Positions 6,701 through 25,855 of a stretch of DNA of 64,000 nucleotides are shown one piece after another. Within the stretch, counting starts at the first letter, position 1, and every line of letters starts with the position of its first letter. This stretch comes from a virus (lineage: Duplodnaviria > Heunggongvirae > Uroviricota > Caudoviricetes). The notes under the pieces are model-generated. The model did no database searches, had not been told where the DNA came from, and was given only the letters and a program-made list of their open reading frames with translations. The position numbers were made by a program, and so were the translations under genes. The DNA lies in the IMG/VR virus record IMGVR_UViG_3300044929_000080; one strand, 5' to 3'.

Positions 6701-8104
6701 ATGGCATTATTCGACGTACTACCGTCAGATTTGTTTAAGCCACTGGCATCTCCTTCGAGAAGGTTTTATGCCGACCTTTTGCTGAATCTTCACGAGAAAA
6801 CATTTTCGCTTGCGGCCGAAGCTCCAAGAAGAACGCAAGTCATTCAGGAAATCGGTGACTTCCTTACTCGTTGGGAATTCGCCAATAATGAGACTGTGGA
6901 TCGTGATGAGGAAAAAGCGACGGCTCTTGAGGATCGTGCGCGCACGATTTACCAGCGTCTCGTTGATACTGGATGGATGATTGAACATAAGGATCGGTAC
7001 ATCCGACTTGTCGATCTTGATCCAGATGCAAGTGGATTGCTCCATGTTCTTGCTGGTATCGAGCGGGGAGATACACGCACATATGGCGGTGCTGTAATTG
7101 CAGTCCTCACTTCCCTAGAAAGTGCAACCAGTCATCCTGCAGATCGTTCTGAAAATATTCGCAACGCGCTGATTGGTGCTCGCGATTTCATGGCGCATAT
7201 GCGAATGGTATCTGTCTCGTTGCGCAAAGTTGAAGAAAGAATTGTTCGGCAGGATAATCTTAGGGATATCTTTCGTCATTTTTTTGAAGACTTTGTTCAG
7301 CGCCATCTGATTGCTGATTTTAAAACACTACACACAAAGAACAATCCGTTCAGGTTCAGAAGCACTATCATTCATCAAGCGCAGAAAATGCTGAATGATC
7401 CCCTTCTCTTGTTCGCATTGGGCGAGGCTTATTGGCGGGAGGGTCGCGCGCAGAACGCGCATCAAGGTGAACTCGCTGTTTCAGCAGACTTAGGGAATAT
7501 TATTGCCATTTTCGAGAGCACCGAAGGGCATTTATCTGCAATCGACAACACAGCTGCGAGCATCGAAAAAAGGATTATGACGACGGCGCGCTACATGGAT
7601 CGTATTGGACGGTCTACAGAAGCACGCCTCATCGAGGCAATGAAAGCACTCTCCAGTGCATCCGGCGACGTTGATAACAGACTTGTTCAACCCCCATTTT
7701 TGCCGACTTTCCTGCCTATCGGTCCAGCGCATATTCCAACTCCACGTCGTGAGAAGCCTCCAATTGAAATTTCTGGTCTCAGGGAAAACAAGAAAGACCC
7801 AGGACTGGAATTATTTATTGCAGCTAAGGCGGACTATACAAAACGTACGCGGGTAGCACCTCAGCGACTAGCAGAGTTCATACAAAAGGCACTCGGCGAT
7901 CAGACGTCGATAAAGGGTTCAGAGATTAAAATTGTTTCTGTCGATGATTTCGTATGTTTTCAAAGATTACGTGAAATCAAATCGATATTTGATGGCTTTA
8001 TCGCCAAGAAGTATGAACTTGAATACCTTGATACGCGACTTCACAACGAATGGATTGAATGCCAGGACTTTGTGATAAAGCCAAAAAAGCAAACTAAGGT
8101 GTAG
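6701..8104 (+). CDS. jetA: Wadjet JetA (kleisin-like subunit)
   Basis: 467 aa; N-terminus 'LFDVLPSDLFKPLASPSRRFYADLL' recalled as DUF5716-type JetA; first gene of a tight A-B-SMC operon. Confidence 0.8.
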   Translation: MALFDVLPSDLFKPLASPSRRFYADLLLNLHEKTFSLAAEAPRRTQVIQEIGDFLTRWEFANNETVDRDEEKATALEDRARTIYQRLVDTGWMIEHKDRYIRLVDLDPDASGLLHVLAGIERGDTRTYGGAVIAVLTSLESATSHPADRSENIRNALIGARDFMAHMRMVSVSLRKVEERIVRQDNLRDIFRHFFEDFVQRHLIADFKTLHTKNNPFRFRSTIIHQAQKMLNDPLLLFALGEAYWREGRAQNAHQGELAVSADLGNIIAIFESTEGHLSAIDNTAASIEKRIMTTARYMDRIGRSTEARLIEAMKALSSASGDVDNRLVQPPFLPTFLPIGPAHIPTPRREKPPIEISGLRENKKDPGLELFIAAKADYTKRTRVAPQRLAEFIQKALGDQTSIKGSEIKIVSVDDFVCFQRLREIKSIFDGFIAKKYELEYLDTRLHNEWIECQDFVIKPKKQTKV

Positions 8105-8105
8105 T

Positions 8106-8861
8106 ATGTCGACAGTAATTGATGAATTCGAACAAATCATCGACGGCGACTGGAAACTTGGTTCTATTGCTGGAAAGAAGCCGACGCGTGAAGAACTGAT
8201 ACGTTGCACTCAAGCACTTTTGACGCGTCAGTGCATATACCCATCATCACCTGGCCTTGGAAGAACATATGAGCTTATTCGCGCGTATTCTTCTTATTTT
8301 GAGGCGTATTTTTCTTGCATGGGGTATCGTCTTGTTATCGCAGCTCGCGATCAGATGGTCGCCCTTTCAGTTCCGCAGGAACAAACGCGCTATGACGCTG
8401 CCTACCAGCGCTTAAGCAAAGAACAGACCATCGTCCTACTCGCCCTTCGTCTGATGTGGGAAGAGGGAGTTAACAATCAAGACGTTCAGGAAGGCGGCAT
8501 CGTCGAGACTACAACTGGCGATTTGATTGACCGGATAAAAAGTGTCACGCAAGGCACCCCTCTTGATGAGCGGCCACTGCTCGACGTTTTGAGATTTTTC
8601 CAACGTTACGGCGTTGTCCGTGTCGGTGAACGTGACCGCATTGAACGCGTCTCTCCGCTTTCCATACTGCCTGGTGTAAATGTGGTCGTTCCTGACAGCT
8701 TTGTCGAAGATTTGAAACTTTGGCTTGCGAGTCCTGAAAACAGGGATCAGAAACCGCCAGCTCAACAGATTGAACAGCCTGAAAAGAGTGTTGATGTCGA
8801 TATTGACACAACATCCAATCTCCCTGATGTCGATCTCAGCAGTTTCGAAACCGAACAGTGA
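8106..8861 (+). CDS. jetB: Wadjet JetB (KITE-like, DUF4194-type)
   Basis: 251 aa between JetA and the SMC ATPase; 'LSKEQTIVLLALRLMWEE', 'ILPGVNVVV'. Confidence 0.8.
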   Translation: MSTVIDEFEQIIDGDWKLGSIAGKKPTREELIRCTQALLTRQCIYPSSPGLGRTYELIRAYSSYFEAYFSCMGYRLVIAARDQMVALSVPQEQTRYDAAYQRLSKEQTIVLLALRLMWEEGVNNQDVQEGGIVETTTGDLIDRIKSVTQGTPLDERPLLDVLRFFQRYGVVRVGERDRIERVSPLSILPGVNVVVPDSFVEDLKLWLASPENRDQKPPAQQIEQPEKSVDVDIDTTSNLPDVDLSSFETEQ

Positions 8862-8907
8862 CCTGACAACACGTCTTCGTGTCTTATTACTATAAAGGAG
8901 CTGACCA

Positions 8908-11900
8908 GTGCATCTTTTGACCCGCATTTGTCTGCAAAACTGGTATCTCATTGATGCCAAAGACATCGAAATCGATGGTGCTACCGCTCTTGTCGGACCT
9001 ACTGGTGCGGGCAAATCATCCATTCAGGATGCAATACAAACAATTATCACTGGCGCTAACCAAAACCGCTTGAACCTCAACCCAAGTGCTAGTGGGCGTT
9101 CTGCAAGATCGGTGTTGGAATATTGCCTTGGCTTGACGAAAGACCCTGCAGAAGGCGGTAAGCCATTACGTTCAAGCTGCGAAACGGTTTTGGCCCTCGT
9201 TTTCCGTGATGAAGAAACCAAGGAGCCTGTCACTGTTGGAATAGCCATGTCCGCGCGTGAAGGCGATTCACGCGAAGAAGTTCTCTCCCGCTTCATCGTC
9301 CCAGGTCATGCCTATTCAGTAGAAAACGCTAAGCGCCGGATCGGCTCCCGTGAGACACTCGCGACATGGGCGGAAGTGTCAGCTTCCATTCGTAAAAATC
9401 ATCCTCAGATGGAAGAATACCGAACTTCAGCTGAGAAGTTCACAAATGACATGTTGAAAGTGATGCGCGGTGCGGGACACACCCCTAACGTCCGTCACTT
9501 CCTACGGTCATTTTCAAACGCTCTCGCGTTTCGCCCAATCTTCGATCCCACGACATTCGTGCGAGATTTCGTACTTGAACCAGATCCTCTTGATGTGGAG
9601 CGTGTTAGGACATCGATTAACACGTGGCAAGAACTTGAACGGATCATTGAGGACGTCGAAGCACGACTACGTCGCATAACCAGACTTTCAGATCGTTTTC
9701 GCAATTGGGGACGCGCACGGATGCGCAGTGAGGCAGCTCGTTTCACTTCTGCCGTAGCCGAGACACGACGCACGGCGCACGATGTTCTTGCTCTCAAAGA
9801 AATCCTGAAACGCAAATCACAAGAACTCTCCACAGAAAGAACAGCCCTTTCAACCCGCAGGCAGTGGGTTAAGGAACTTGATGATGATATCCGTGCAAAA
9901 CGTTCGCTAGCTCAAGCAGGCGATGAAGCGGCACGGCTTCGGCAAATCGAGGTCGAGAGCAAGCTAGCGGAGAGAGACTCTACTGACGCGAGAAATCGTT
10001 ACAAAAAGTTGCGAGAAGCCCTGACATCGATTGCTCAGCTGGCTCCAATCAAGCCACTTATGACGCCAACACAAGCTCATGCTCTTGAATCAGCCAAAGA
10101 AGCCGCTCGGCTGATGTCAGACGGGTTCGATCCTGCGGAAGCAATGAGAGCCAAAGGCGTTCAGATACAAGAACTGGTAGATATCGTCGTTGGAATTGAA
10201 GGTCTCGAAGTTTTCCTTCATGAAAAAGCCGACGCATTGATGGAAGAACTCCGGACACTACAGGAAAAGGCTGAACACCTCGAACAAATGCTCAGCCGTA
10301 GCGGTGGTGGAAATGCAATTCTGTCACCTCAGGCAACTAAATTACTTGGCACTCTTGCTCGTAAACACATGGACCCCATTCCATTGTGTGATGTTGTTGA
10401 TGTGTCCGATGAAAGTTGGCAATACGCAATTGAATCACTGCTTGGTCGTGGACGTGAGGCCATTATCGTCGAACCAGATCGGTTGGATGAAGCTTTCGAT
10501 TTAATGTGGCAAGACAGAGACGCCTATTCAGGCTGTACATTAGTTAAAACTACAGCCACGCATTCAATTTCTCTTCACACGCCGCCAGGAAGCATTCTCG
10601 AATCTGTTGTCACTGAAAATGATCACGCAGCCGCGTTTTTATCGGTTCGTATTGGTTCATTCAGGAAAGCAGAAACAGAAGCAGACCTGACCCACTTAGA
10701 GAGAGGGGTCATGCGTAATGGTAAAACTTCATCGGGAATGGGACTCTCAGTACAGCGGAACCTGCGTGAACTGGTTCTCGGCCGCAACGCTCGCGAGAAA
10801 ACAAACGAAGCGTTACGTAACGATCTGACTCCTATTCGTGAGAAGCTTCACGAACTACGCACATCGACCAAGTTGTTACGCGAGGCATCACGGATCATCC
10901 CAATTGCAATCGATGCGATAAAGAATGGCCAATCACCGTTTGATCTTGAACACTCCCTCAATGCAGCCAAACAAAGGCTCGTAGCTCTTCACCAGAGCAA
11001 ATCGTCAATTGGAAATACTGAAGCAAAAGTGCTTCTCGAAGACATCGAAGCGATGGAGAGTGATCGCGAACTTTATCAAACAGAGATATCGCAAGAGATA
11101 GAACCGAACGTTGAACGCCTTCAGGGAGAAGTCGCCTCTGCTCGTGCCAAGCTCGATCATGCTCTGGAACAAATTCGCACATCGATCAAGCAGCGCAAGA
11201 AGTCTTGGGAGAACATCAACAGCCCAGAAATCCAGCGTATTCCAGATTTCGATCCTGAAATAGACGAACCCAATGCCATTGGGACGCTTAAAAAGATTCG
11301 CGCTGATATCCGTCGTGGTGAGGAAGACAGAAAAGATCCGAAATCTTGGCTCGCTTCGATGCGGAACGACAATAAAGCTATCGCGGAAAACACAGAAGCC
11401 GAACTTCGCAGGGAGCAGGCAGGCGCTATTCGCGAAATGGCCGAGTATTCTGCAAACTGGGAAACAGAAGTCCCGAAGATTGAGCCTGACAACATGACCA
11501 TCGGTTACGCCTGGGTGATGGGAGAACAGTCACGCCTGCAAAATAACGAACTGCGAAAACATCGTGATGCATGCGCCCAAGCCGCTGACGAAATGCGAAG
11601 AATGTTGAAAGAAGATTTGCTCACGCGACTGGCCGAGAAGTTAAACAAAGTTCATCAGCGTATGGATACATTGAACAGCTTTTTGTCCAGACACAGATTT
11701 ACGGGGCAAACTTACACGTTCGAGTCGGAAGTCAATCAGCGCTTTGCCTTAATGCACGATCTGGCGATGAAGATTGGAGGGCAATCGAATGATGAGCCTG
11801 TCGCTCTTGACGACGAAGAAATATCAAACGCTGTAACTGAACTCGAAGGGATGATTGAAGGAGCCGAAGACGCGGCAACTCTGGCAGACTATCGTCAGTA

Positions 11901-12372
11901 TTTTGTCTTCGAAATCATCATGACTGACGCCGCTGGAGGAAGGACGTCTTTGTCTTCTCGTGCGGTTAAAGGCTCAGGTGGTGAAGCACAGGCCCCATTC
12001 TATGTTGCTATTGCGGCATCGCTCGCCAGCGCCTACTTCCCTGGCCATAACGGACATGGCAGACCGACAGGTATGGGGCTTGCGCTGTTCGATGAGGCTT
12101 TCAACAAGCTAGACGTGCCTAACACACAAGCGCTTCTGACATTCTTCAAAGACATGGGTCTCCAGCTCATGATCGCTGGCCCAGAAGACAAGCGAGCAAC
12201 CTTCACCGAAGTTCTCGACACCATTGTACTGGTTAACAAGTCACTGGATGCGAGTACGGTTTACGTGGACGCGGAATATCCAGGCATGAAAGCCAGAGAA
12301 GCCCTTGGAGAAATCAACCCAGACCATAAAGGTGTCGAGTACTTCAAACAGGCCTCGACGGCTGCAGAATAG
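8908..12372 (+). CDS. jetC: Wadjet JetC SMC-family ATPase
   Basis: 1154 aa, GTG start with RBS aaggag; Walker A 'GPTGAGKS', long coiled coils, signature 'GSGGEAQ', Walker B 'LFDEAF'. Confidence 0.9.
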   Translation: MHLLTRICLQNWYLIDAKDIEIDGATALVGPTGAGKSSIQDAIQTIITGANQNRLNLNPSASGRSARSVLEYCLGLTKDPAEGGKPLRSSCETVLALVFRDEETKEPVTVGIAMSAREGDSREEVLSRFIVPGHAYSVENAKRRIGSRETLATWAEVSASIRKNHPQMEEYRTSAEKFTNDMLKVMRGAGHTPNVRHFLRSFSNALAFRPIFDPTTFVRDFVLEPDPLDVERVRTSINTWQELERIIEDVEARLRRITRLSDRFRNWGRARMRSEAARFTSAVAETRRTAHDVLALKEILKRKSQELSTERTALSTRRQWVKELDDDIRAKRSLAQAGDEAARLRQIEVESKLAERDSTDARNRYKKLREALTSIAQLAPIKPLMTPTQAHALESAKEAARLMSDGFDPAEAMRAKGVQIQELVDIVVGIEGLEVFLHEKADALMEELRTLQEKAEHLEQMLSRSGGGNAILSPQATKLLGTLARKHMDPIPLCDVVDVSDESWQYAIESLLGRGREAIIVEPDRLDEAFDLMWQDRDAYSGCTLVKTTATHSISLHTPPGSILESVVTENDHAAAFLSVRIGSFRKAETEADLTHLERGVMRNGKTSSGMGLSVQRNLRELVLGRNAREKTNEALRNDLTPIREKLHELRTSTKLLREASRIIPIAIDAIKNGQSPFDLEHSLNAAKQRLVALHQSKSSIGNTEAKVLLEDIEAMESDRELYQTEISQEIEPNVERLQGEVASARAKLDHALEQIRTSIKQRKKSWENINSPEIQRIPDFDPEIDEPNAIGTLKKIRADIRRGEEDRKDPKSWLASMRNDNKAIAENTEAELRREQAGAIREMAEYSANWETEVPKIEPDNMTIGYAWVMGEQSRLQNNELRKHRDACAQAADEMRRMLKEDLLTRLAEKLNKVHQRMDTLNSFLSRHRFTGQTYTFESEVNQRFALMHDLAMKIGGQSNDEPVALDDEEISNAVTELEGMIEGAEDAATLADYRQYFVFEIIMTDAAGGRTSLSSRAVKGSGGEAQAPFYVAIAASLASAYFPGHNGHGRPTGMGLALFDEAFNKLDVPNTQALLTFFKDMGLQLMIAGPEDKRATFTEVLDTIVLVNKSLDASTVYVDAEYPGMKAREALGEINPDHKGVEYFKQASTAAE

Positions 12373-16860: not shown

Positions 16861-17079
16861 TTACTTCTCCATTAGGTGGTTACCTAACGGAAAAAGGATT
16901 TTTCATTTCGCATGGACAATCTCCATAATTGCCAAACTATTAAATTAAAGCCGACAGAAGCCCGCTAGCTTTAATTGTTTTTAGCAAAATTGATTACCAA
17001 ATGAAAGCTATTTAATTCGATTATTTGCTTTTTTCGTGTTCCAACTGTTTTAATGGGATTAAAGATTTTGGAGTTTATT

Positions 17080-17634
17080 ATGCCTGCATTTATGAAGCAT
17101 GACCGCGTGGAATTTTCTGCGAACAATAAGGTTGTTTATGGAACAGTAAGAAAAAGCGGAACATCCATGTGTGAGATTGTTCAAGATGGTGCAAAATCAG
17201 TATTCAAAGTACCTAACAAACTTTTAGCGCCCTCGCCAAGTCAACTTCCGGAACTTCCAAAACACCCAATGGATGCGTGGGCCATAAATAAATATAAGTC
17301 ATCCAAAAATTCAAATCGTGAAACACAATGTTTTACGGCGGAGATAACGCACAACGGGGAAACAGTGATTTACGCACAAAATGATGGAAATGGATGTTGT
17401 ATCAGATATTTTGCCATTAACGGACAGTATACAATTGTTGCGCAGTTTGAAGCGGATGCTAAACAATGGCTGATAGATCACGGAATGCCAGAAGATCGCG
17501 CAATTGAAGCAGGAAATATATGGCTAGGCTGGAAAGTAGAACGAGCAGTTTACGCGGGGAGTGCTGAAGATTACGTCAGCGAATGGAAAGAAGCCCTAGG
17601 TATTGAGTTAGACCATGCAGATATGAAAATGTAG
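17080..17634 (+). CDS. Hypothetical protein
   Basis: Start ATG 17080 with RBS ggag; 'ETQCFTAEI...NDGNG' motif. Confidence 0.65.
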   Translation: MPAFMKHDRVEFSANNKVVYGTVRKSGTSMCEIVQDGAKSVFKVPNKLLAPSPSQLPELPKHPMDAWAINKYKSSKNSNRETQCFTAEITHNGETVIYAQNDGNGCCIRYFAINGQYTIVAQFEADAKQWLIDHGMPEDRAIEAGNIWLGWKVERAVYAGSAEDYVSEWKEALGIELDHADMKM

Positions 17635-17689
17635 ATTTTGCCATTTTTATAGGCGATAATTAGTTACAAATTTTATTTCGGAACCCATC

Positions 17690-18211
17690 ATGCTGCATGG
17701 AAATGAAAAAATTTATTGGCAGGCAAGTCCAAGCAAAATTGCAATAATATTCACCCCCGGTATTTTGATTGAAATAATCGTGGCGGCAGCTTTGTTACAT
17801 CCATTCATAACAGGGTCTGTCAGTAATATTGTCAATAGTATTCCTGTTTTGGGCGTAATAGGTGTGCTTGCACCTTACATCCCATCTGGTCTGGTAATTC
17901 TGGCCGCAATTTGGCATTTCCTGACGAAGGCCACTCTCCAATACATATTTACCAGTGAGCGGCTCATCATTCGTTACGGCGTTTTAGTACGCACAGAAGA
18001 CGAAATCGAACTCTATCGTGTCATTGATGCAATCCATACAATCAATATTTTTCAGAGATTAATCGGGGTCGGTACAGTAACAGTTACGTCGTCTGACAAA
18101 ACTGGAACTGTCGTCATGAACTCTATTTATGATCCATCTCGTGTTAGAAATGGGCTTAGAAAACTTTCCGAACGCTGCAAATCAAAACGAGGTGTTCGTA
18201 TTCTTGAATAA
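17690..18211 (+). CDS. Membrane protein with bacterial PH domain (bPH_2 type)
   Basis: Two TM segments then 'YIFTSERLIIRYGVL...EIELYRV...IFQRLIGVGTV'. Confidence 0.8.
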   Translation: MLHGNEKIYWQASPSKIAIIFTPGILIEIIVAAALLHPFITGSVSNIVNSIPVLGVIGVLAPYIPSGLVILAAIWHFLTKATLQYIFTSERLIIRYGVLVRTEDEIELYRVIDAIHTINIFQRLIGVGTVTVTSSDKTGTVVMNSIYDPSRVRNGLRKLSERCKSKRGVRILE

Positions 18212-18216
18212 ATGCA

Positions 18217-18245
18217 TTGACAGTTTTCGTATATATTTTTATCTT
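18217..18245 (+). promoter_or_regulatory. Sigma70-type promoter of the tyrS leader
   Basis: TTGACA (18217-22), 17-bp spacer, TATCTT (18240-45); predicted start near 18252, the A of the leader ATG. Confidence 0.65.
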
Positions 18246-18251
18246 AATTAT

Positions 18252-18305
18252 ATGTGCAAGATCGTGAACCACTTTTCTGTTTATTATTACGGCCCGCTCA
18301 CCTAG
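18252..18305 (+). CDS. Putative tyrS leader peptide MCKIVNHFSVYYYGPLT
   Basis: 17-codon ORF with tandem TAT TAT TAC at 18282-90, about 100 nt upstream of tyrS; no SD, likely leaderless. Confidence 0.75.
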   Translation: MCKIVNHFSVYYYGPLT

Positions 18306-18362
18306 CGGACAGCCGTCGATCTCACATGCATCGATGTCACCGCTAATCGGGACATCGATTTT
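18294..18362 (+). promoter_or_regulatory. Attenuator: alternative 1:2, 2:3 and 3:4 hairpins
   Basis: CCGCT(18294-98)/AGCGG(18304-08); TAGCGG(18303-08)/CCGCTA(18340-45) with TCGAT(18316-20)/ATCGA(18330-34); ATCGATGTC(18330-38)/GACATCGAT(18351-59) followed by a short T run. Confidence 0.7.
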
Positions 18363-18409
18363 GCGGTCTGACTCCCAATTAGCGGCTTCCAAAATACCAA
18401 TTAGCTAAC

Positions 18410-19648
18410 ATGGGATTCAATGAAATGCTGACTGAACCAAACTTCACACCTACATTCGCTTCCCCATTCCTCCAGGACATGCAGGAGCGCGGAATGATCA
18501 ACCAATGTACTGACCTCGTCACTCTCGATAACAAACTTGTTGCTGGCCCAATTACGGCATACGTCGGATTTGACGCGACGGCCGCCAGCCTTCATGCTGG
18601 GCATCTACTCTCGCTGATCACTATGCGTCGCCTTGCTCGTCATGGCCATCGCGTCATTGCGCTACTTGGAGGCTCAACTACACTCATCGGAGATCCAAGC
18701 TTCAGGACAGAAAGCAGACCTCTTCTGACCGAAGCATCTGTTGCCGACAACATCGCAGGCATCCGAGGCAATATCGAAGCCGTTCTTGGTGAGCATGCTG
18801 CTAACCTGATGATTGTCGACAACAAGGATTGGCTTGGAGAAGTGGGCCTGATCTCGTTTATGCGAGAAGTTGGAGCGCACTTTACGCTTGCTCGCATGCT
18901 TACGATGGAATCTGTCAAACGCCGTCTGGACGATGGGCTGACCATGCTGGAATTCAGCTACATGATGCTGCAGTCCACCGACTTCTTGGAACTGGCCAGG
19001 CGTCACGATTGCGTCCTGCAGATGGGTGGATCGGATCAGTGGGGAAACATTGTAAACGGCATCGAACTAGCACGGCGTAGCGACGGCAAGGAATTGCTTG
19101 GTCTTACGACACCATTGCTCACGACAACCAACGGTCAGAAGATGGGCAAGACGGCTAATGGAGCCGTATGGCTTGCAGCCGAGAAGCTATCGCCGTTCGA
19201 TTTCTGGCAGTTTTGGCGTAATGTAGATGACGCTGATGTACGCAGGCTTTTGCTAATGCTGACCGACTTCACTTTGGCGGAAATCGAAGCTCTTTGCGAA
19301 GGCAATATCAACGCCGCCAAGGTGGCACTTGCCGAAGCAGTCACTGGACTTGTTCATGGTGCAGAAGAAGCGGAACGGTGCAACCAGCGCGCAGTACAAC
19401 TGTTCAACGGCGAACGACCCCAAGAAGTCACAATTGTTCAATCTCAAGATGGTGCCAAGGGTTTGGTGTCGATCATGGTTGAGCTTGGTTTTTGCAAAAC
19501 CAACAATGAAGCGCGGCGGTTGGTCGATGGAAATGCAGTAAAAATTGACGGTACGCTTGTGACAAATTGGAAAATAGAATTTAATTCCGGTCAGGAATTC
19601 CTAATCACAAGTGGAAAAAGAAACAGAAATTTCGTAAGAATTTCATAA
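18410..19648 (+). CDS. tyrS: Tyrosine--tRNA ligase
   Basis: 'YVGFDATAASLHAGH' (HIGH), 'QMGGSDQWGNI', 'KMGKT' (KMSKS), C-terminal S4-like domain. Confidence 0.97.
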   Translation: MGFNEMLTEPNFTPTFASPFLQDMQERGMINQCTDLVTLDNKLVAGPITAYVGFDATAASLHAGHLLSLITMRRLARHGHRVIALLGGSTTLIGDPSFRTESRPLLTEASVADNIAGIRGNIEAVLGEHAANLMIVDNKDWLGEVGLISFMREVGAHFTLARMLTMESVKRRLDDGLTMLEFSYMMLQSTDFLELARRHDCVLQMGGSDQWGNIVNGIELARRSDGKELLGLTTPLLTTTNGQKMGKTANGAVWLAAEKLSPFDFWQFWRNVDDADVRRLLLMLTDFTLAEIEALCEGNINAAKVALAEAVTGLVHGAEEAERCNQRAVQLFNGERPQEVTIVQSQDGAKGLVSIMVELGFCKTNNEARRLVDGNAVKIDGTLVTNWKIEFNSGQEFLITSGKRNRNFVRIS

Positions 19649-19730
19649 TTTCGATTAATTCATTAGTCACAAGCATATTGCTCTGGCAGCCTTATTAATG
19701 CCAGAGCAATATTTTTTATGGAGTGACCAA

Positions 19731-20423
19731 ATGACCAAAGTTGTTCCTATTATTGTCGCAAACAATATAGACGACGATTTGCTTTCCAAACACGGCGCGA
19801 TGAAACGCCTTACCGAAACTGTAGACCTTAAAAATCGACGTCTTTATGAGACAGCATTCCTTCTCTCTACAGTTAGTACAATTCCCACACTTCATAATGT
19901 TGTTACCAAGAAAAATATCATTGAATATAACCACATTTACGGATGTGAGGGGTTTGAGGTTTCAATGTTCGCGCTGCTTGCCGTGGCAAAAATAGCCAAT
20001 GACAAATATCCTGGCGCTCCGATTATGATGCTAAAGTCTACAATGCGGAGAGAAATGCAAGGCGATCATACACGAGATATTAAAGACAACGTCTCAAACG
20101 CATTACTGGGACACGTCATTACTTTTTCTTCAACAGACCATTTCATGATAGATGCCATGTTCACATATCAGGGACTCAATGATGTTTGTTCTTTGGTCTG
20201 GGGTGACCAAATAGATATCGAAAAGAACTGGAGAGAATACGCAACTGCTCGTGATCATTCACGAGGTAGAATAGCTAGGGGTCCAGCTTCAATTGGAAGT
20301 GTAGATGCTCACGAAATGCTTGAATTCAAACTGAGAACGAAAGAATTTATTTATACAGAGCAGAGTCCGCAACTCTACTCGCCATGGAAAACTTACGATA
20401 ACATAAGAGCTTTCAGCGCATGA
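19731..20423 (+). CDS. Hypothetical protein
   Basis: Start ATG 19731 with RBS ggag; 230 aa. Confidence 0.65.
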   Translation: MTKVVPIIVANNIDDDLLSKHGAMKRLTETVDLKNRRLYETAFLLSTVSTIPTLHNVVTKKNIIEYNHIYGCEGFEVSMFALLAVAKIANDKYPGAPIMMLKSTMRREMQGDHTRDIKDNVSNALLGHVITFSSTDHFMIDAMFTYQGLNDVCSLVWGDQIDIEKNWREYATARDHSRGRIARGPASIGSVDAHEMLEFKLRTKEFIYTEQSPQLYSPWKTYDNIRAFSA

Positions 20424-21699: not shown

Positions 21700-22917
21700 T
21701 CAAAGTTCCATCTTCGGGCCCGTTTCAGAATGGCGATAACCTTCGCGCGTTGGTCCCCATGATGTGCCTTTGACAACAATTCCTGTTGCCCTTTCAACTT
21801 CACAGGATAACTGATCCGCAGACACACAGTTTGACAAACTATCATTTTCGTAAAATACGGGGTTCGAGAGGAGTTGATCCATGCAGGTGATCACAATTCC
21901 AGCATCGATTTCGATCTGACCCTCAACGCGGGAAATGTCGTGGGCAATTGCCTTCTTTAATACCCCAAGATCCAAGGGTGCAGCACGGATAGTCCCCTGC
22001 CAGTCATTGTGAACGTTGGTTGGATCGACGATTTCAACATAGCTCATATCGTCTCCGGCATGGGCCATTGGCCCTGCACCATGGCGAGTTGTGTAAGACC
22101 GCGTCATGTAATGGACATCGATACCGTCGAGTCCAGCCTCGTTCGCAATTGTTGCCATATTCAGGAGTCCGGTGTTTGAACGGGTGACGTGAGGAAATAC
22201 GCCGTAGTCCTGATCAAGCAGCAGGCCTTGAGCTCCTTCGAAAAGAATGTGGCCCATCAGGCGGCTATCATCACGCAGACCAACGATATTTTTAAAATCA
22301 TCGCAATCATGGACGAAACGCTCAAGGATGCCGTCATTATTGATAATAGATAACTGATGATCTGACAGGGCATCAGCCCCAAGTGCGGACATACGAAGAG
22401 AAACCCATTCAGAACGAATATTCGCCAGCGTGTCCTTGATGTTTTTATCGCCAAAAAGATCGCCCACAGTAATGCGGAGGTTATCCCTGAGACTTCTCTC
22501 GATAGCTTCACCAAATCCAACCCCGCAACTGCCATGACGTTCACCAGCGCGCTGTTGCTCAATGAACTGGTTGATCATCATATCATAAGGGGTCGTAATG
22601 ATGCTGCGTGGGTCAACAGTAATGACTGTGTTTGCCCCCAGTTGACGCAAAGCCTCGAATTCTTCCAACAGCAGCATCGGATGCGAGACAAAAAACTGCG
22701 ACATGTGCGAAGAAACACCTGCAAATGCTCCAGAACCGAAATGATGAAAGACATGACGTTTGCCATCGGGTGTCGTTACTGTATGGCCAGCCTGTGCGCC
22801 ACCATTAGAACGGACAACGATATCTGCACCCTTGTGGGCCAGGATATCAGTCATAAGACCTTTGCCTTCATCTCCGTAAGCTGAACCGATGACCGCACTT
22901 GCCATTCTCTTCGTCAT
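21700..22917 (-). CDS. Adenylosuccinate synthetase (PurA)-like GTP-dependent ligase, divergent
   Basis: 'GDEGKG', 'NGGAQAGHT', 'FEGAQGLLLD', 'YTTRHGAGP'; start ATG 22917 after aaaggaaa; aspartate-binding loop not conserved. Confidence 0.85.
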   Translation of the reverse strand: MTKRMASAVIGSAYGDEGKGLMTDILAHKGADIVVRSNGGAQAGHTVTTPDGKRHVFHHFGSGAFAGVSSHMSQFFVSHPMLLLEEFEALRQLGANTVITVDPRSIITTPYDMMINQFIEQQRAGERHGSCGVGFGEAIERSLRDNLRITVGDLFGDKNIKDTLANIRSEWVSLRMSALGADALSDHQLSIINNDGILERFVHDCDDFKNIVGLRDDSRLMGHILFEGAQGLLLDQDYGVFPHVTRSNTGLLNMATIANEAGLDGIDVHYMTRSYTTRHGAGPMAHAGDDMSYVEIVDPTNVHNDWQGTIRAAPLDLGVLKKAIAHDISRVEGQIEIDAGIVITCMDQLLSNPVFYENDSLSNCVSADQLSCEVERATGIVVKGTSWGPTREGYRHSETGPKMEL

Positions 22918-22954
22918 GCCATTTTCCTTTCCGCCGTTATGGAGCATCCCGCCA

Positions 22955-23863
22955 TCAGGCGAGACGCCGTACTCCAGTTGGAGCGCCACGTTCGACAAGG
23001 CTCTGGATTGCACTTGCTACAACCAGCGAGGTACCATCTGTCCAGCTACCAGCAACATCAGCCTTCTTCGCGCCTTCCGTCACCTGGATAGCTGAGACAA
23101 TAGTTTCCGCGAGCTTGGTGTGGTCATCGAGAATAATCACACGTTGCGGCAGAAGTGCTTGCCATTGAAAAATTGAATTGGTGCCGTAAGATCGCCGTCG
23201 CTCATTAATTACGACATGGAATACTTCATATTTGGCGCTAGCCATGCGAATGCATTCTTCCGTCGACAAAGTCGGAGTTTGGAGGCCAAGAAATTTAGAA
23301 GCTTGTGCGGACGTCACTTCTTCAAGAACGGGTTCGTCACCAACAGTGAAGAGGTACCCCTTCTTGCGACGTTTTTCCCATGCGTCGGATACAGTCTTTT
23401 CGGCAGCAAACAAATGAGCAAGATTATAACTCTCGCCATCATTCGGGCCACCACCCCTTTCCAGATAGATTTCTTTCAACTGTTTCGCGATCCGAATATC
23501 GGCTTCGAATTGGGTTGCCTGAAGCGGAGAATGATCATATTCGCAATCGCCAATTGCGAGCGCCATCAAATGTGGATCTGTTACGGGTTTGCGAGCATAA
23601 ATTTCCGTCGCCAACGTATTTAATCCGTCACGAATTAAATTGTCAGCAATAATTCCCATTGATCCAGTGACATCTACACCAACGATAATTGGCGTAGAAT
23701 TCGGATTGTCTGCAGAATCCCGCGATTCACGAACATTGATAAGCCTAGGATCGAACTCGTCCTTCATGGCACTCGAAGTGAACACCGTTGCCGACGACTT
23801 TCCTGCTACATGCGCTGTAGAATAGCTATCCCAAGCGCCAGAATCCCATCTTCCAGTACCCAT
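22955..23863 (-). CDS. vWA-domain protein (paralogue 2)
   Basis: MIDAS-like 'VDVTGSMG', 'GGGPNDGESY', 'LFTVGDE'. Confidence 0.8.
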   Translation of the reverse strand: MGTGRWDSGAWDSYSTAHVAGKSSATVFTSSAMKDEFDPRLINVRESRDSADNPNSTPIIVGVDVTGSMGIIADNLIRDGLNTLATEIYARKPVTDPHLMALAIGDCEYDHSPLQATQFEADIRIAKQLKEIYLERGGGPNDGESYNLAHLFAAEKTVSDAWEKRRKKGYLFTVGDEPVLEEVTSAQASKFLGLQTPTLSTEECIRMASAKYEVFHVVINERRRSYGTNSIFQWQALLPQRVIILDDHTKLAETIVSAIQVTEGAKKADVAGSWTDGTSLVVASAIQSLVERGAPTGVRRLA

Positions 23864-23875
23864 TTTATTCTCCTT

Positions 23876-24796
23876 TTAAGATGCGAGACGGACAACGCCG
23901 CCCTGTTTAATGTTTGATGGAAGGTTTTCGATAGCATTGGCGACTGTCATTGCAGTAGAACCGCTCCACGAATTTGCAACCGTGGCCTTATTGGCACCTT
24001 CGATGACCTGGATCGTCGATACAACGACTTCAGCGAGCTTGGTGTAATCATCGAGAAGGATCACACGTTGGCCAATAATTTTCTGCCAGCGGTCGAGAAC
24101 AGTCGGCAAATTATAACGCGCATCACCTTCGTTCTTTAAAACGATGTGAAAGACTTCATAAGTCTTCATGGCCATATCGACACAATCTTGTGCTGACATG
24201 TTACCCTGCGGGCTAATACCGAAAACCTTTTCGACTTCCGCAGCAGTCAAGCCATCATGAATGGGTTCATCACCAATAGTGAAGAGATAGCCCTTCTTGC
24301 GACGTTTTTCCCAGGAGTCAGATACAGTCTTAGCTGCCGCGAAATAGTGAGCAAGAGAATAAGATTCTCCACCGTTTCCGCCGCCGCCAGATTCAATCCA
24401 AAGTTCACGAACCTGATCTGCGAGAGAAATATCAGCTTCAAACTGTGTAGCCTGGGCTGGGGCGCTATCTGTCTTGGCATCACCGATAGCCATAACCATG
24501 ATATGAGGATCGCTCACTGGCTTGCGGTCATAAATTTCCTTGGCCAGCGTGTTCAATCCGGTCTGCATAAGATTATGCGAAATCATGCCCATAGAGGCAG
24601 TGACATCGGCAGCGAGAATAATTGGCGTTGAGTTCGGATTATCAGCAGAATCCCGCGATTCACGGACAAGAATTTCGCGCGGATTATAGGCAGATTTCAT
24701 ATTGCGAGATGTAAAGACCTGCCCTGCCGACTTTCCGCTTACGTTTGCAGAGGCATAGTTGTCCCACGCATTACTACTCCAACGACCATTTCCCAT
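23876..24796 (-). CDS. vWA-domain protein (paralogue 1)
   Basis: 'ADVTASMG', 'GGGGNGGESY', 'LFTIGDE'; colinear with 22955-23863. Confidence 0.8.
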   Translation of the reverse strand: MGNGRWSSNAWDNYASANVSGKSAGQVFTSRNMKSAYNPREILVRESRDSADNPNSTPIILAADVTASMGMISHNLMQTGLNTLAKEIYDRKPVSDPHIMVMAIGDAKTDSAPAQATQFEADISLADQVRELWIESGGGGNGGESYSLAHYFAAAKTVSDSWEKRRKKGYLFTIGDEPIHDGLTAAEVEKVFGISPQGNMSAQDCVDMAMKTYEVFHIVLKNEGDARYNLPTVLDRWQKIIGQRVILLDDYTKLAEVVVSTIQVIEGANKATVANSWSGSTAMTVANAIENLPSNIKQGGVVRLAS

Positions 24797-24811
24797 AGTT
24801 TTACTCCTTCA

Positions 24812-25855
24812 TCATGCGCCGTAAACATCGGCAGGGGTTACATTCATCTCCACGAATTTTCTTTTGCCGTAGCTTTTATCCAGGCACGCGGACCAACCTG
24901 CATAATCTTTGAACGCTCCATCAGCGGGGGGAAGCAAAAGCCATTCACGCATTGCGACGGGAACGTCCGCATTCATGTGAAGGCCTCCACCGCCTGGACA
25001 GCCGAGGAGATCTTGTGCCGTGGCACGAATGAGTTGAAGATCAACTTTCTCGTCGACTGGTGTTCCAGAAACTACCATTTTTGGCAGGATCGAAGTAGTC
25101 CGCTCCGGCAATGCCAAGGGACGCTTCCCAAATTCAGTTGCAAATCCCCAACCGCCAACAAGCATAATTGAATGCCACTTTGGAGAGACAAGAATATTCG
25201 ATGGCGAAACAGCACCATGACAAATTCCAGCCCATTTGAGATAGCAAGCCATATTCATGAGACTGGAAACGATCCATGCAACGTGAACTGCTGGAAGCTG
25301 CCCGTTGTAGTGATTAATGAGATCAGCCAACAGCAGGTATTCAACGGGACGCTCGATTACGGACACAATGCCATTATGGCCAAGATCCCAATATTCTCTC
25401 TGTTTTGGCAAGAACCGCTTGATTTCTTTTTCCATAGCAGCGTCAGCAAACTTGAAATTTTGAAGCCGATTGCGCTCCGCTCCAGCGATATCGTCGAAAC
25501 CATCAGGAATCTCATAGGCGAGTGAGGATTTCCCGATATAAACATCGCCGAGGTCAGCAGTACGATTGACGAGATATTTGAAATTGAAACCGCCACTCAG
25601 ACCAGGCCCTGACTTCATGAAGGCCTTCGACATCAGAAGTTCAGCTCTAGGTTTTACAGCACCAAGCTTGCCCAACGCCGCGTTTTTAAGTTCTGTCAAA
25701 TGACCAAAAACATCACGCGCCTGATCCGACGAATTGTGGTCAGGATGCCAGTCCATAATGAGTTTGCGATACAAACGCTTCACAGACTTTTCATCCCCGG
25801 AAAACAGGGTTGAGGCATCAATCTTTTTCAGTGCGAGGATGTCTTGAGCATTCAT
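24812..25855 (-). CDS. J-domain fused to a kinase-like (probably inactive) domain
   Basis: 'YRKLIMDWHPD' (J-domain HPD); catalytic-loop-like 'HGAVSPSNIL' and 'GGW' in place of HRD and DFG. Confidence 0.7.
   Translation of the reverse strand: MNAQDILALKKIDASTLFSGDEKSVKRLYRKLIMDWHPDHNSSDQARDVFGHLTELKNAALGKLGAVKPRAELLMSKAFMKSGPGLSGGFNFKYLVNRTADLGDVYIGKSSLAYEIPDGFDDIAGAERNRLQNFKFADAAMEKEIKRFLPKQREYWDLGHNGIVSVIERPVEYLLLADLINHYNGQLPAVHVAWIVSSLMNMACYLKWAGICHGAVSPSNILVSPKWHSIMLVGGWGFATEFGKRPLALPERTTSILPKMVVSGTPVDEKVDLQLIRATAQDLLGCPGGGGLHMNADVPVAMREWLLLPPADGAFKDYAGWSACLDKSYGKRKFVEMNVTPADVYGA

What the first reader, a model, noticed from the sequence alone, without database searches (positions are those of the whole stretch)
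18217..18409. Tyrosine-sensing leader peptide and complete attenuator upstream of tyrS
Seen: TTGACA-N17-TATCTT places the transcript start at about the ATG of a 17-aa ORF, MCKIVNHFSVYYYGPLT*, with three tandem Tyr codons. The TAGCGG over its stop pairs either upstream with CCGCT (1:2) or downstream with CCGCTA (2:3, extended by TCGAT/ATCGA). The 2:3 helix excludes the 3:4 hairpin ATCGATGTC/GACATCGAT, which is followed by TTT. A ribosome stalled on YYY would free region 2; one reaching the stop would cover it. Established: this is the logic of trp/his/pheST attenuators, such as the WWW leader of rhizobial trpE(G). I know no described Tyr-codon attenuator on a proteobacterial tyrS, and the well-known Firmicute tyrS control is a T-box. 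Caveats: the U-tract is short, and another ATTAGCGG at 18378-85 offers further pairings.
Basis: partly seen in the sequence, partly recalled or inferred. Interest (0 to 1): 0.9.

Follow-up and report, generated by a model that had tools for sequence, protein, structure and literature searches.

The report
Tyrosine-sensing leader-peptide attenuator of tyrS
A 17-codon mini-gene with three tyrosine codons and a set of competing RNA hairpins sits in front of a tyrosyl-tRNA synthetase gene, and the same device is conserved before this synthetase paralogue in alpha-, beta- and gamma-proteobacteria including Pseudomonas; it most likely switches the enzyme on when charged tyrosine tRNA runs short, and I found no description of it.

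Summary

- About 45 homologous leaders lie upstream of the same TyrRS paralogue in rhizobia, Azospirillum, Pseudomonas, Massilia and Rhodocyclaceae. All keep a 15-21 codon ORF with YY, YYY or YYxY.
- In all 35 leaders folded, a ribosome footprint on the Tyr codons allows a stable 2:3 helix that occupies much or most of the 5' arm of hairpin 3:4. A footprint on the stop codon does not.
- In three of the six lineages of the window's own subgroup, the homologous 3:4 hairpin scores as an intrinsic terminator.
- The leader RNA is 96-97% identical to its nearest relatives, against 82-84% for tyrS itself.
- The -10 box ends 6-7 nt before the leader ATG in 39 of 44 leaders, so the mini-gene is probably translated from a leaderless mRNA.
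- All seven genomes checked carry a second TyrRS gene without a leader.

Open points: the window's U-tract has only four U, the transcript ends are not measured, and the output in Pseudomonas and Azospirillum (no U-tract, a helix over the ribosome-binding site) is unresolved.

Rfam and the papers I could search hold no description. This scan has noted Tyr-codon tyrS leaders before, on unrelated Clostridia DNA. I class it as a new member of a known kind.

The parts
18217..18245 (+). Sigma-70-type promoter: TTGACA, 17-nt spacer, TATCTT. The -10 box ends 6 nt before the leader ATG, which predicts a leaderless transcript starting at about 18252.
   Evidence: The -10 to ATG distance is 6-7 nt in 39 of 44 homologous leaders.
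18252..18305 (+). Leader ORF, 17 codons plus TAG: MCKIVNHFSVYYYGPLT*. Its first 13 nt (AUGUG, AGAUCG) form the 5' arm of helix P0.
   Evidence: Homologous ORFs appear.
18282..18290 (+). Regulatory codons TAT TAT TAC (Tyr 11-13).
   Evidence: Tyr runs are conserved in all homologous leaders, with synonymous variation.
18289..18298 (+). Region 1: ACGGC and CCGCU, the 5' arms of helix P1. It overlaps the last Tyr codon.
   Evidence: MFE fold.
18303..18327 (+). Region 2: UAGCGG (over the stop codon), GCCGU, CGAUCU, CACAU. It pairs either with region 1 and the start of the leader (P1, P0) or with region 3 (antiterminator).
18330..18347 (+). Region 3: AUCGAUGUC, A, CCGCUAAU. It is the 5' arm and apical part of hairpin P3. 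It pairs with region 2, with region 4, or (CCGCUAAU) with region 5.
   Evidence: The complementarity to region 5 covaries in relatives.
18348..18362 (+). Region 4 (CGGGACAUCGAU) closes hairpin P3 (18330-18359, dG -15.6) and is followed by a U-tract of four U (18359-18362). This is the putative attenuator terminator.
   Evidence: The homologous hairpin is called terminator-like in L073, L075 and L076. The window's own copy is not called.
18368..18385 (+). Region 5: CUGACUCCCA (pairs with UGGGAUUCA over the tyrS start region, helix P5) followed by AUUAGCGG (complementary to CCGCUAAU of region 3).
   Evidence: MFE shows P5. Region 5 covaries across relatives.
18397..18405 (+). Second copy of the direct repeat CCAATTAGC, just upstream of the first ATG of tyrS. 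Its GCUAA also takes part in P5.
18410..19648 (+). tyrS, a type-1 tyrosyl-tRNA synthetase of 412 aa from the first ATG. The second ATG at 18425 aligns with Met1 of relatives. UGGGAUUCA at 18411-18419 is the 3' arm of P5.
19675..19717 (+). Hairpin ATATTGCTCTGGCA..TGCCAGAGCAATAT followed by T5, read by eye. It looks like the terminator of a monocistronic leader-tyrS unit.
   Evidence: sequence. One search did not flag it, because the loop is longer than 8 nt.

Best explanation
This is a ribosome-mediated (leader-peptide) attenuator that reports the supply of Tyr-tRNA(Tyr) and controls a TyrRS gene.

Proposed sequence of events:
1. Transcription starts at or next to the A of the leader ATG, so the 17-codon leader is translated from a leaderless 5' end.
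2. When Tyr-tRNA is plentiful, the ribosome runs to the UAG, which lies inside region 2 (UAGCGG). While it sits there, or after release when region 2 pairs back onto the leader ORF (P0/P1), region 3 is free. Region 3 then forms hairpin P3 with region 4, and the following UUUU ends the transcript near 18362.
3. When Tyr-tRNA is scarce, the ribosome stalls on Tyr codons 11-13 and covers region 1 but not region 2. Region 2 pairs with region 3 (UAGCGG/CCGCUA plus CCGUCGAU/AUCGAUGG), P3 cannot form, and RNA polymerase reads into tyrS.
4. A further helix (CUGACUCCCA with UGGGAUUCA) covers the tyrS start region. Next to it lies AUUAGCGG, which is complementary to region 3. This probably adds a translational layer.

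Shown here: the sequence elements, their conservation and covariation, and the footprint-dependent folding logic.

Inferred: leaderless initiation, termination at the four-U tract, the response to tyrosine, and the role of region 5 and P5.

In the 7 related genomes checked, the regulated enzyme is a second TyrRS paralogue. It is therefore probably a back-up enzyme induced when tyrosine charging fails. Whether the window's own genome has another TyrRS could not be checked, because no genome is held.
For: 1. Conserved Tyr codons before the same gene.
- Homologous short ORFs lie 100-170 nt upstream of the orthologous TyrRS.
- In the window's subgroup: L001 and L071 have ...VYYYGPLT, L072 has ...NYYYGPLL, L076 and L075 have ...SYYYGPLS, L073 and L074 have ...SYYRGPQ, L002 has ...AYYYGSRTAR.
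- Azospirillum has MTDRIALTAPMYYPPLT. Pseudomonas and betaproteobacteria have ...RYYAY(Y)RTSPRR.
- The other codons vary freely. Alignment gaps inside the ORF are mostly multiples of three. Tyr codon choice varies between TAT and TAC.

2. Switch logic.
- In all 8 members of the window's subgroup, masking a ribosome footprint on the Tyr codons lets a 2:3 structure of -13 to -22 kcal/mol form. In the window it is -16.6 and takes 11 of the 13 nt of the P3 5' arm.
- Masking a footprint at the stop codon leaves only -2 to -6 kcal/mol, so P3 (-11 to -18) is free to form.
- The same contrast holds in 26 of the 27 gamma, beta and Azospirillum-group leaders folded, where the 2:3 structure takes about half to most of that arm. 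In the 27th (L021) the script picked the helix over the ribosome-binding site instead of P3.

3. Terminator. The homologous P3 is called terminator-like by the scan in L073, L075 and L076, with tails TTTCGTTT, TTTGTTT and TTTTTTGTTT.

4. Covariation.
- P3 stem positions change G-C to C-G and U-A to A-U or C-G among subgroup members. The inner 2:3 helix changes from GUCGAU/AUCGAU to GUCGAA/UUCGAC in L073.
- In 17 gamma and beta leaders, the helices of the off state are 90% paired against 30-47% when the partners are slid. The 2:3 plus 4:5 helices are 98.5% paired against 41-66%, with 2 compensatory pairs reached by 1 of 500 shuffles.

5. Constraint on the RNA. The leader region 18252-18409 is 96.8% and 95.6% identical to L001 and L071. 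The figures are 82-84% for the tyrS coding sequence, 70% for the upstream gene and about 50% for the promoter spacer.

6. Promoter geometry. The -10 hexamer ends 6-7 nt before the leader ATG in 39 of 44 leaders.

7. Specificity. All 7 genomes checked have two TyrRS genes, and only this paralogue has the leader.

8. Not another known RNA. No Rfam family, T-box included, matches the window or six relatives.
Against: - The window's U-tract has only four U (UUUUGCGGU), and the terminator scan does not call it.
- Three subgroup lineages (L072, L074, L002) and nearly all gamma, beta and Azospirillum leaders lack a U-tract after P3. Intrinsic termination therefore cannot be the family-wide output.
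- The leader ORF has no Shine-Dalgarno sequence, so the model needs leaderless initiation. That is inferred from promoter geometry only.
- Equilibrium folding with ribosome footprints, or with region 4 left free, does not consistently open the tyrS ribosome-binding site.
- No transcript ends are known.
- The outer 2:3 helix (GCGG/CCGC) is invariant, so it carries no covariation evidence.
Confidence: 0.78

Rival explanations
1. The sensor is the same Tyr-codon leader peptide, but in the window the output is mainly translational or Rho-dependent rather than intrinsic termination. On this view the P3 against 2:3 switch decides whether region 5 (CUGACUCCCA-AUUAGCGG) pairs with the tyrS start region (UGGGAUUCA) or with region 3. 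Alternatively it decides whether Rho can load on the untranslated leader.
For: - Only four U follow P3, and the scan does not call a terminator.
- A helix over the tyrS start is in the MFE fold of the window and of all subgroup members.
- In Pseudomonas, betaproteobacteria and L002, an anti-Shine-Dalgarno strand (GUCUCCU against AGGAGAC; UUCCUUCCUG against CAGGAAGGAA) overlaps the segment that covaries with the apical part of P3.
- Most family members have no U-tract.
Against: - Thermodynamic simulations show no consistent opening of the ribosome-binding site: 10 of 31 leaders in the expected direction.
- The closest lineages L073, L075 and L076 have canonical terminators at the homologous hairpin.
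- The window extends P3 by 4 bp and keeps UUUU.
Confidence: 0.15
2. The short ORF is not translated. The element would then be a structured 5' UTR that binds a protein or ligand, for example TyrRS autoregulation through a tRNA mimic as in E. coli thrS, or a riboswitch. The Tyr codons would be conserved for RNA-level reasons.
For: - The nucleotide sequence of the leader is extremely conserved.
- UAUUAC is invariant in the 17 gamma and beta leaders.
- There is no Shine-Dalgarno sequence before the ORF.
Against: - ATG, an open frame of 15-21 codons and a stop placed in or next to region 2 are kept across very divergent sequences, with indels mostly in threes.
- Tyr codons vary synonymously and in number between lineages (UAUUAUUAC, UAUUACUAC, UAUUAC, UACUAC).
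- P3 loops differ (CUAAU, CGGGU, CCCUUC, UGA) and none resembles the tRNA-Tyr anticodon loop.
- No Rfam match.
Confidence: 0.05
3. It is a chance ORF next to an ordinary structured UTR, with no regulatory role.
For: Short ORFs and hairpins are common in intergenic DNA. YYY sites occur 4 times in the window, against 6.5 expected.
Against: - It is the only short ATG-ORF with YYY in 64 kb, and it lies directly before tyrS.
- It is conserved before the same paralogue in three proteobacterial classes.
- The leader is more conserved than the coding sequence.
Confidence: 0.02

Closest known systems
E. coli pheM-pheST attenuator (leader peptide rich in Phe codons before the PheRS genes); recalled from textbook knowledge
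   Same: An aminoacyl-tRNA synthetase gene is controlled by a short leader ORF carrying codons for its own amino acid. It uses alternative 1:2, 2:3 and 3:4 helices. A stalled ribosome gives read-through and more synthetase.
   Different: The amino acid is Tyr, not Phe. The leader here appears to be translated from a leaderless mRNA. The window's terminator has a short U-tract. An extra downstream segment (region 5 and P5) links the switch to the tyrS start region. There is no sequence or Rfam relation.
Rhizobial trpE(G) attenuator with the trpL leader (Sinorhizobium meliloti; PMC6614838)
   Same: It is a leader-peptide transcription attenuator in Alphaproteobacteria with three tandem regulatory codons (WWW there, YYY here).
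   Different: That attenuator controls a biosynthetic gene rather than a synthetase. trpL has its own ribosome-binding site. No homology was detected.
Streptomyces coelicolor trpS1: an auxiliary, indolmycin-resistant TrpRS controlled by ribosome-mediated attenuation (Vecchione and Sello, J Bacteriol 2010; recalled from memory, not in the searchable library)
   Same: A second, auxiliary synthetase paralogue is induced through a leader peptide with cognate codons when charging of that tRNA fails.
   Different: The amino acid and the phylum differ. Whether the TyrRS here is inhibitor-resistant is unknown.
T-box riboswitch of Firmicute tyrS and tyrZ
   Same: It regulates the same gene and responds to the same physiological signal, a shortage of charged tRNA-Tyr. 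It also works through a terminator/antiterminator choice.
   Different: The T-box binds uncharged tRNA directly and needs no translation. No T-box match exists here, and the sensor here is a translated ORF.
Leaderless polycysteine short ORFs acting as Cys-responsive attenuators in mycobacteria (bioRxiv 10.1101/834739)
   Same: A regulatory leader ORF begins at the 5' end of a leaderless transcript and senses one amino acid through a codon run.
   Different: That system is in Actinobacteria, senses Cys and controls operonic genes. Here the leaderless start is inferred from promoter spacing only.

Membership tests
Ribosome-mediated (leader-peptide) transcription attenuator | A short ORF upstream of the regulated gene, with clustered codons for the amino acid related to that gene | tested here: met
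   A 17-codon ORF with Tyr codons 11-13 lies before tyrS. It is the only such ORF in the window. Tyr clusters are conserved in about 45 homologous leaders.
Ribosome-mediated (leader-peptide) transcription attenuator | Mutually exclusive helices 1:2, 2:3 (antiterminator) and 3:4 (terminator) | tested here: met
   The MFE fold shows 1:2 plus 3:4. With the Tyr codons masked, a 2:3 structure of -16.6 kcal/mol takes 11 of 13 nt of the 3:4 5' arm. The same holds in the other 7 subgroup members and in 26 of 27 wider-family leaders.
Ribosome-mediated (leader-peptide) transcription attenuator | Geometry: a ribosome stalled on the regulatory codons covers region 1 but not region 2, and a ribosome at the stop codon covers region 2 | tested here: met
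   The last Tyr codon starts 15 nt before the UAG, which lies inside region 2. Footprint masking gives -16.6 kcal/mol for 2:3 on a stall and -3.7 at the stop.
Ribosome-mediated (leader-peptide) transcription attenuator | The 3:4 hairpin is an intrinsic terminator (GC-containing stem followed by a U-run) ahead of the structural gene | tested here: inconclusive
   The window has a stem of 12 pairs (-15.6 kcal/mol) and then only UUUU, and the scan does not call it. The homologous hairpins in L073, L075 and L076 are called terminators. L072, L074 and L002 lack a U-run.
Ribosome-mediated (leader-peptide) transcription attenuator | The leader ORF is translated | not testable with these tools
   There is no Shine-Dalgarno sequence. 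Promoter spacing predicts a leaderless AUG. Only assembled contigs of RNA runs were available, and they cannot show starts or ribosome occupancy.
Ribosome-mediated (leader-peptide) transcription attenuator | Expression responds to the supply of the cognate amino acid or charged tRNA | not testable with these tools
   This needs reporter assays or Northern blots under tyrosine limitation.
T-box riboswitch | Specifier loop, conserved T-box sequence and Stem I architecture (Rfam RF00230) | tested here: not met
   cmscan at E up to 10 on 17000-20000 found no match. At E up to 1, six related loci gave one match, a chance miRNA hit outside the leader in L051.
Curated Rfam leader families (Trp, His, Leu, Thr, Phe leaders) | A match to the covariance model | tested here: not met
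   No matches.

The most novel reading that the evidence does not exclude
One conserved, leaderless Tyr-codon sensor (ORF plus the 1:2 / 2:3 / 3:4 switch) has been joined to different outputs in different lineages. In the ant-symbiont and rhizobial lineage the output is an intrinsic terminator. In Pseudomonas (the tyrS paralogue, alongside tyrZ), betaproteobacteria and Azospirillum it is a relay that hides the ribosome-binding site, or possibly Rho. In the 7 genomes checked it controls an auxiliary TyrRS kept beside a leader-less copy, which suggests a back-up or inhibitor-resistant enzyme induced when tyrosine charging fails.
Probability: 0.45. Interest if true: 0.7.

Novelty: new member of a known kind. 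Interest (0 to 1): 0.58.

Why it matters
Leader-peptide attenuation is textbook for the trp, his, phe, thr, leu and ilv operons and for pheST. A tyrosine-specific attenuator on a proteobacterial tyrS is in neither Rfam nor the papers I could search.

The family found here spans three proteobacterial classes and includes genetically tractable organisms such as Pseudomonas and Azospirillum, so it can be tested directly.

It would explain how bacteria with two TyrRS genes control the second one. It would also give a natural example of a leader peptide read from a leaderless mRNA outside Actinobacteria. Finally, it shows one sensor coupled to different expression platforms, which is useful for understanding how attenuators evolve and for building tyrosine-responsive switches.

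Tried and rejected
- **Rfam.** Searches of the window and six relatives found no known RNA family.
- **Whole genome of the window.** None is held, so I could not tell whether this tyrS is the only copy in its own genome.
- **Plasmid collection.** There are only distant tyrS coding matches and no leader match.
- **Equilibrium folding with ribosome footprints, and folding with region 4 free or P3 formed.** Neither showed consistent opening of the tyrS ribosome-binding site (10 of 31 in the expected direction). The translational relay suggested by covariation is therefore not supported thermodynamically and stays an inference.
- **Sequencing runs.** The DNA occurs in 'ant metagenome' runs. The six RNA libraries are kept only as assembled contigs. 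Contigs in three runs cover leader plus tyrS without a break (17819-19837, 18039-19798, 18156-19809) and are deeper than the flanking contigs. Contigs cannot show starts, ends, strand or level, so this says nothing about attenuation.
- **tRNA-mimic (thrS-like) idea.** Rejected, because P3 loops differ between lineages and none resembles the tRNA-Tyr anticodon loop.
- **Calling the paralogue 'tyrZ'.** Rejected. The leader-bearing enzyme is type 1 (E. coli TyrS-like). In Pseudomonas the other copy, which starts MKSVEEQ..., is the TyrZ type.
- **MAFFT alignment A2 of the full subgroup leaders.** It misaligned the window's 3' arm of P3. I used per-sequence folds and a hand-shifted alignment instead.
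- **Literature.** Searches for tyrS, tyrZ, PA4138, tyrL, leader peptide, uORF and attenuation found no description.
Full report
**Observation.**

- TTGACA (18217-18222), 17 nt and TATCTT (18240-18245) precede an ATG at 18252 by 6 nt. The scan lists this as a promoter-like site with 10 of 12 matches.
- The ORF reads MCKIVNHFSVYYYGPLT and stops at TAG 18303-18305. The Tyr codons are at 18282-18290.
- The downstream ORF 18410-19648 is a full-length tyrosyl-tRNA synthetase (Pfam tRNA-synt_1b and S4; TIGR00234 324 bits).
- The 161-nt leader folds to -43.4 kcal/mol, z = -2.6 against shuffles.
- In the whole 64-kb window, on both strands, this is the only ATG-started ORF of 30 codons or fewer that contains YYY.

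**Relatives.**

A scan of one genome per species with the TyrRS protein returned 66 loci. A metagenome scan returned 70 more.
- The nearest relatives, Mesorhizobium sp. SP-1A (L001, 87% aa) and L071 (88%), carry an almost identical leader. The region 18252-18409 is 96.8% and 95.6% identical. The tyrS coding sequence is 82-84% identical, the upstream gene 70%, and the promoter spacer about 50%. The few differences fall in leader codons 6-8, which are unpaired, and near the tyrS start.
- Five further lineages at 55-59% protein identity (L072, L073, L074, L075/L076, L002) have leaders ...NYYYGPLL...SYYRGPQ...SYYYGPLS(QR) and ...AYYYGSRTAR.
- Beyond this subgroup, the same kind of ORF precedes the orthologous gene in Azospirillum and relatives (MTDRIALTAPMYYPPLT), in many Pseudomonas and Stutzerimonas (...RYYAY(Y)RTSPRR...YYSYRLSPSGR...RYYAYLLPH), and in Massilia, Caldimonas, Methyloversatilis, Pseudothauera and Rhodocyclaceae.
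- ORF length stays at 15-21 codons. The ATG is invariant. Alignment gaps within the ORF are mostly multiples of three. Tyr codon usage varies between lineages (UAUUAUUAC, UAUUACUAC, UAUUAC, UACUAC).

**Which gene is regulated.**

- All seven genomes examined contain two TyrRS genes: Mesorhizobium SP-1A, Pararhizobium BT-229, Azospirillum lipoferum, Pseudomonas paraeruginosa, Pseudothauera, Massilia and Geopseudomonas.
- The other copy never has a Tyr-rich upstream ORF.
- In Mesorhizobium the leader-bearing copy lies in DNA of 51% G+C, against 66% around the housekeeping copy. It was probably acquired horizontally.
- In Pseudomonas the leader-less copy is the TyrZ type, so the regulated gene corresponds to tyrS.
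- The window itself is 40-49% G+C and carries pyrG, ligA, argS, ftsH and acrB. It looks chromosomal rather than plasmid-borne.
- Its DNA occurs in 'ant metagenome' runs.
- No whole genome is held, so I cannot say whether this organism has a second TyrRS.

**Structure and switch.**

The free RNA folds as follows.
- P0 and P1 pair the leader ORF with the segment after it: AUGUG and AGAUCG with CGAUCU and CACAU; ACGGC and CCGCU with AGCGG and GCCGU.
- Hairpin P3 (18330-18359, -15.6 kcal/mol) is followed by UUUU.
- Helix P5 joins CUGACUCCCA (18368-18377) to UGGGAUUCA (18411-18419), across the tyrS start region.

I then masked the nucleotides a ribosome would cover and folded only the RNA that exists before the 3' arm of P3 is made.
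It occupies 11 of the 13 nt of the P3 5' arm.
- With the ribosome on the stop codon, only -3.7 kcal/mol remains and P3 is free to form.
- The same contrast appears in all eight subgroup members: 2:3 at -13 to -22 kcal/mol, -2 to -6 at the stop, and P3 at -11 to -18.
- It also appears in 26 of 27 leaders from Pseudomonas, betaproteobacteria and the Azospirillum group. There the 2:3 structure is -10 to -20 kcal/mol and takes about half to most of the P3 5' arm, with about 0 to -8 at the stop. In the 27th, L021, the script picked the helix over the ribosome-binding site instead of P3.

Covariation supports the helices.
- In the subgroup, two P3 positions change G-C to C-G and U-A to A-U or C-G. 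The inner 2:3 helix changes from GUCGAU/AUCGAU to GUCGAA/UUCGAC.
- In 17 gamma and beta leaders, P1, P3 and P5 are 90% paired against 30-47% for slid partners.
- In the same set, the 2:3 and 4:5 helices are 98.5% paired against 41-66%. They include two compensatory pairs that 1 of 500 shuffles reaches.

**Output.**

- The homologous P3 hairpins of L073, L075 and L076 are followed by TTTCGTTT, TTTGTTT and TTTTTTGTTT, and the scan calls them terminators.
- The window and its two close relatives extend the stem by 4 bp and keep UUUU, which falls just short of the scan's criterion.
- L072, L074, L002 and almost all gamma, beta and Azospirillum leaders lack a U-run.
- In those, and also in the terminator-bearing lineages, the segment after P3 pairs with the Shine-Dalgarno region: UGUUUCCC with GGGAAACA, GUCUCCU with AGGAGAC, UUCCUUCCUG with CAGGAAGGAA.
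- A neighbouring or overlapping 'region 5' is complementary to the apical part of P3 and covaries with it:
  - window: CCGCUAAU with AUUAGCGG
  - L002: CCGCAGG with CCUGCGG
  - L072, L075, L076: CGCCGCGG with CCGUGGCG
  - L073: CGCCGCC with GGCGGCG
  - L031: GCCUGAGG with CCUCAGGC
  - L051, L054, L057: GCCCGAGG with CCUCGGGC
  - L059: GCCCAAGG with CCUUGGGC
  - Massilia: CAGGGAAC with GUUCCCUG
  

It is a conserved fifth element that ties the switch to the tyrS ribosome-binding site. How it acts is not settled. Equilibrium simulations did not show consistent opening of the site on stalling, so a kinetic, pseudoknot or Rho-dependent step may be involved.

**Leaderless start.**

In 39 of 44 leaders, the best -35/-10 pair places the end of the -10 hexamer 6 or 7 nt before the leader ATG. 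Most leaders have no Shine-Dalgarno sequence. The leader is therefore probably translated from a 5'-terminal AUG. P0, which pairs that AUG with region 2, would then limit translation to the first ribosome and could serve as the pause hairpin. This is inference from spacing alone.

**Comparison with known systems.**

- The logic is that of classical attenuators. The closest functional parallels are pheM-pheST of E. coli (a synthetase gene controlled through its own amino acid's codons) and, from memory, the auxiliary TrpRS gene trpS1 of Streptomyces coelicolor.
- The rhizobial trpL-trpE(G) attenuator (PMC6614838) is the nearest example by taxonomy.
- Firmicutes control tyrS through T-boxes. There is no T-box or other Rfam match here.
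- Leaderless regulatory ORFs are documented for Cys in mycobacteria (bioRxiv 10.1101/834739).
- Full-text searches for tyrS, tyrZ, PA4138, tyrL, leader peptide, uORF and attenuation returned no description of this element. Subscription-only literature could not be searched.
- Earlier notes of this scan report Tyr-codon leaders before tyrS in gut Clostridia and other phyla. None concerns this proteobacterial family.

**Verdict.**

The element is a Tyr-tRNA-sensing leader-peptide attenuator and a new member of a well-known class, with three noteworthy traits:
- a probable leaderless leader ORF;
- a fifth element coupling the switch to the ribosome-binding site;
- a wide distribution before one TyrRS paralogue.

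My confidence is about 0.8 that it senses Tyr-tRNA through the leader ORF, and about 0.6 that the window's output is intrinsic termination at 18359-18362.

Noticed in passing
window 6701-12372: A Wadjet-type defence locus: JetA (PF18982, E 1e-84) at 6701-8104 and an SMC/SbcC-like ATPase of 1154 aa (JetC-like) at 8908-12372, with a 251-aa ORF between them.
   Followed up: partly
L038 2835-2882; L090, L098 and L116 about 1335-1383; L104; L113: Marine Rhodobacterales loci carry a different conserved small ORF upstream of their tyrS, with YY near its start (MMTYYLKKNLSITTL, MKYYVKGNLSITTL, MDYYRKSNLSIETH). It may be a divergent Tyr leader. Its structure was not analysed.
   Followed up: no
window 19675-19717: A long perfect hairpin (14-bp arms) followed by T5 lies just after the tyrS stop codon, so leader plus tyrS look monocistronic. 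The listed ORF 19698-20423 probably starts at the ATG at 19732 instead, which follows GGAG.
   Followed up: partly
window 18376-18384 and 18397-18405: The direct repeat CCAATTAGC occurs twice between the attenuator hairpin and the tyrS start. Both copies are complementary to the P3 loop (GCUAAU). In L071 the second copy has diverged (CCAATCAGC).
   Followed up: partly
window 21700-25855 (minus strand): An adenylosuccinate-synthetase-like gene (PF00709) is followed by two ORFs without Pfam matches and a protein with a weak DnaJ-domain hit. This is an unusual neighbourhood for purA and its role is unknown.
   Followed up: no
window 58421-60178: A 585-aa protein with a C-terminal LPD1 domain (a domain of large polyvalent proteins of mobile elements) sits next to ftsH.
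   Followed up: no
L067 and L069 (genome G001): In Mesorhizobium sp. SP-1A the leader-tyrS region has 51% G+C, against 66% around the housekeeping tyrS. This indicates horizontal acquisition from a lower-G+C donor like the window's organism.
   Followed up: partly
whole window: The window's DNA is held at full identity by many 'ant metagenome' DNA and metatranscriptome runs. The organism is therefore probably an ant-associated alphaproteobacterium of about 45% G+C.
   Followed up: partly
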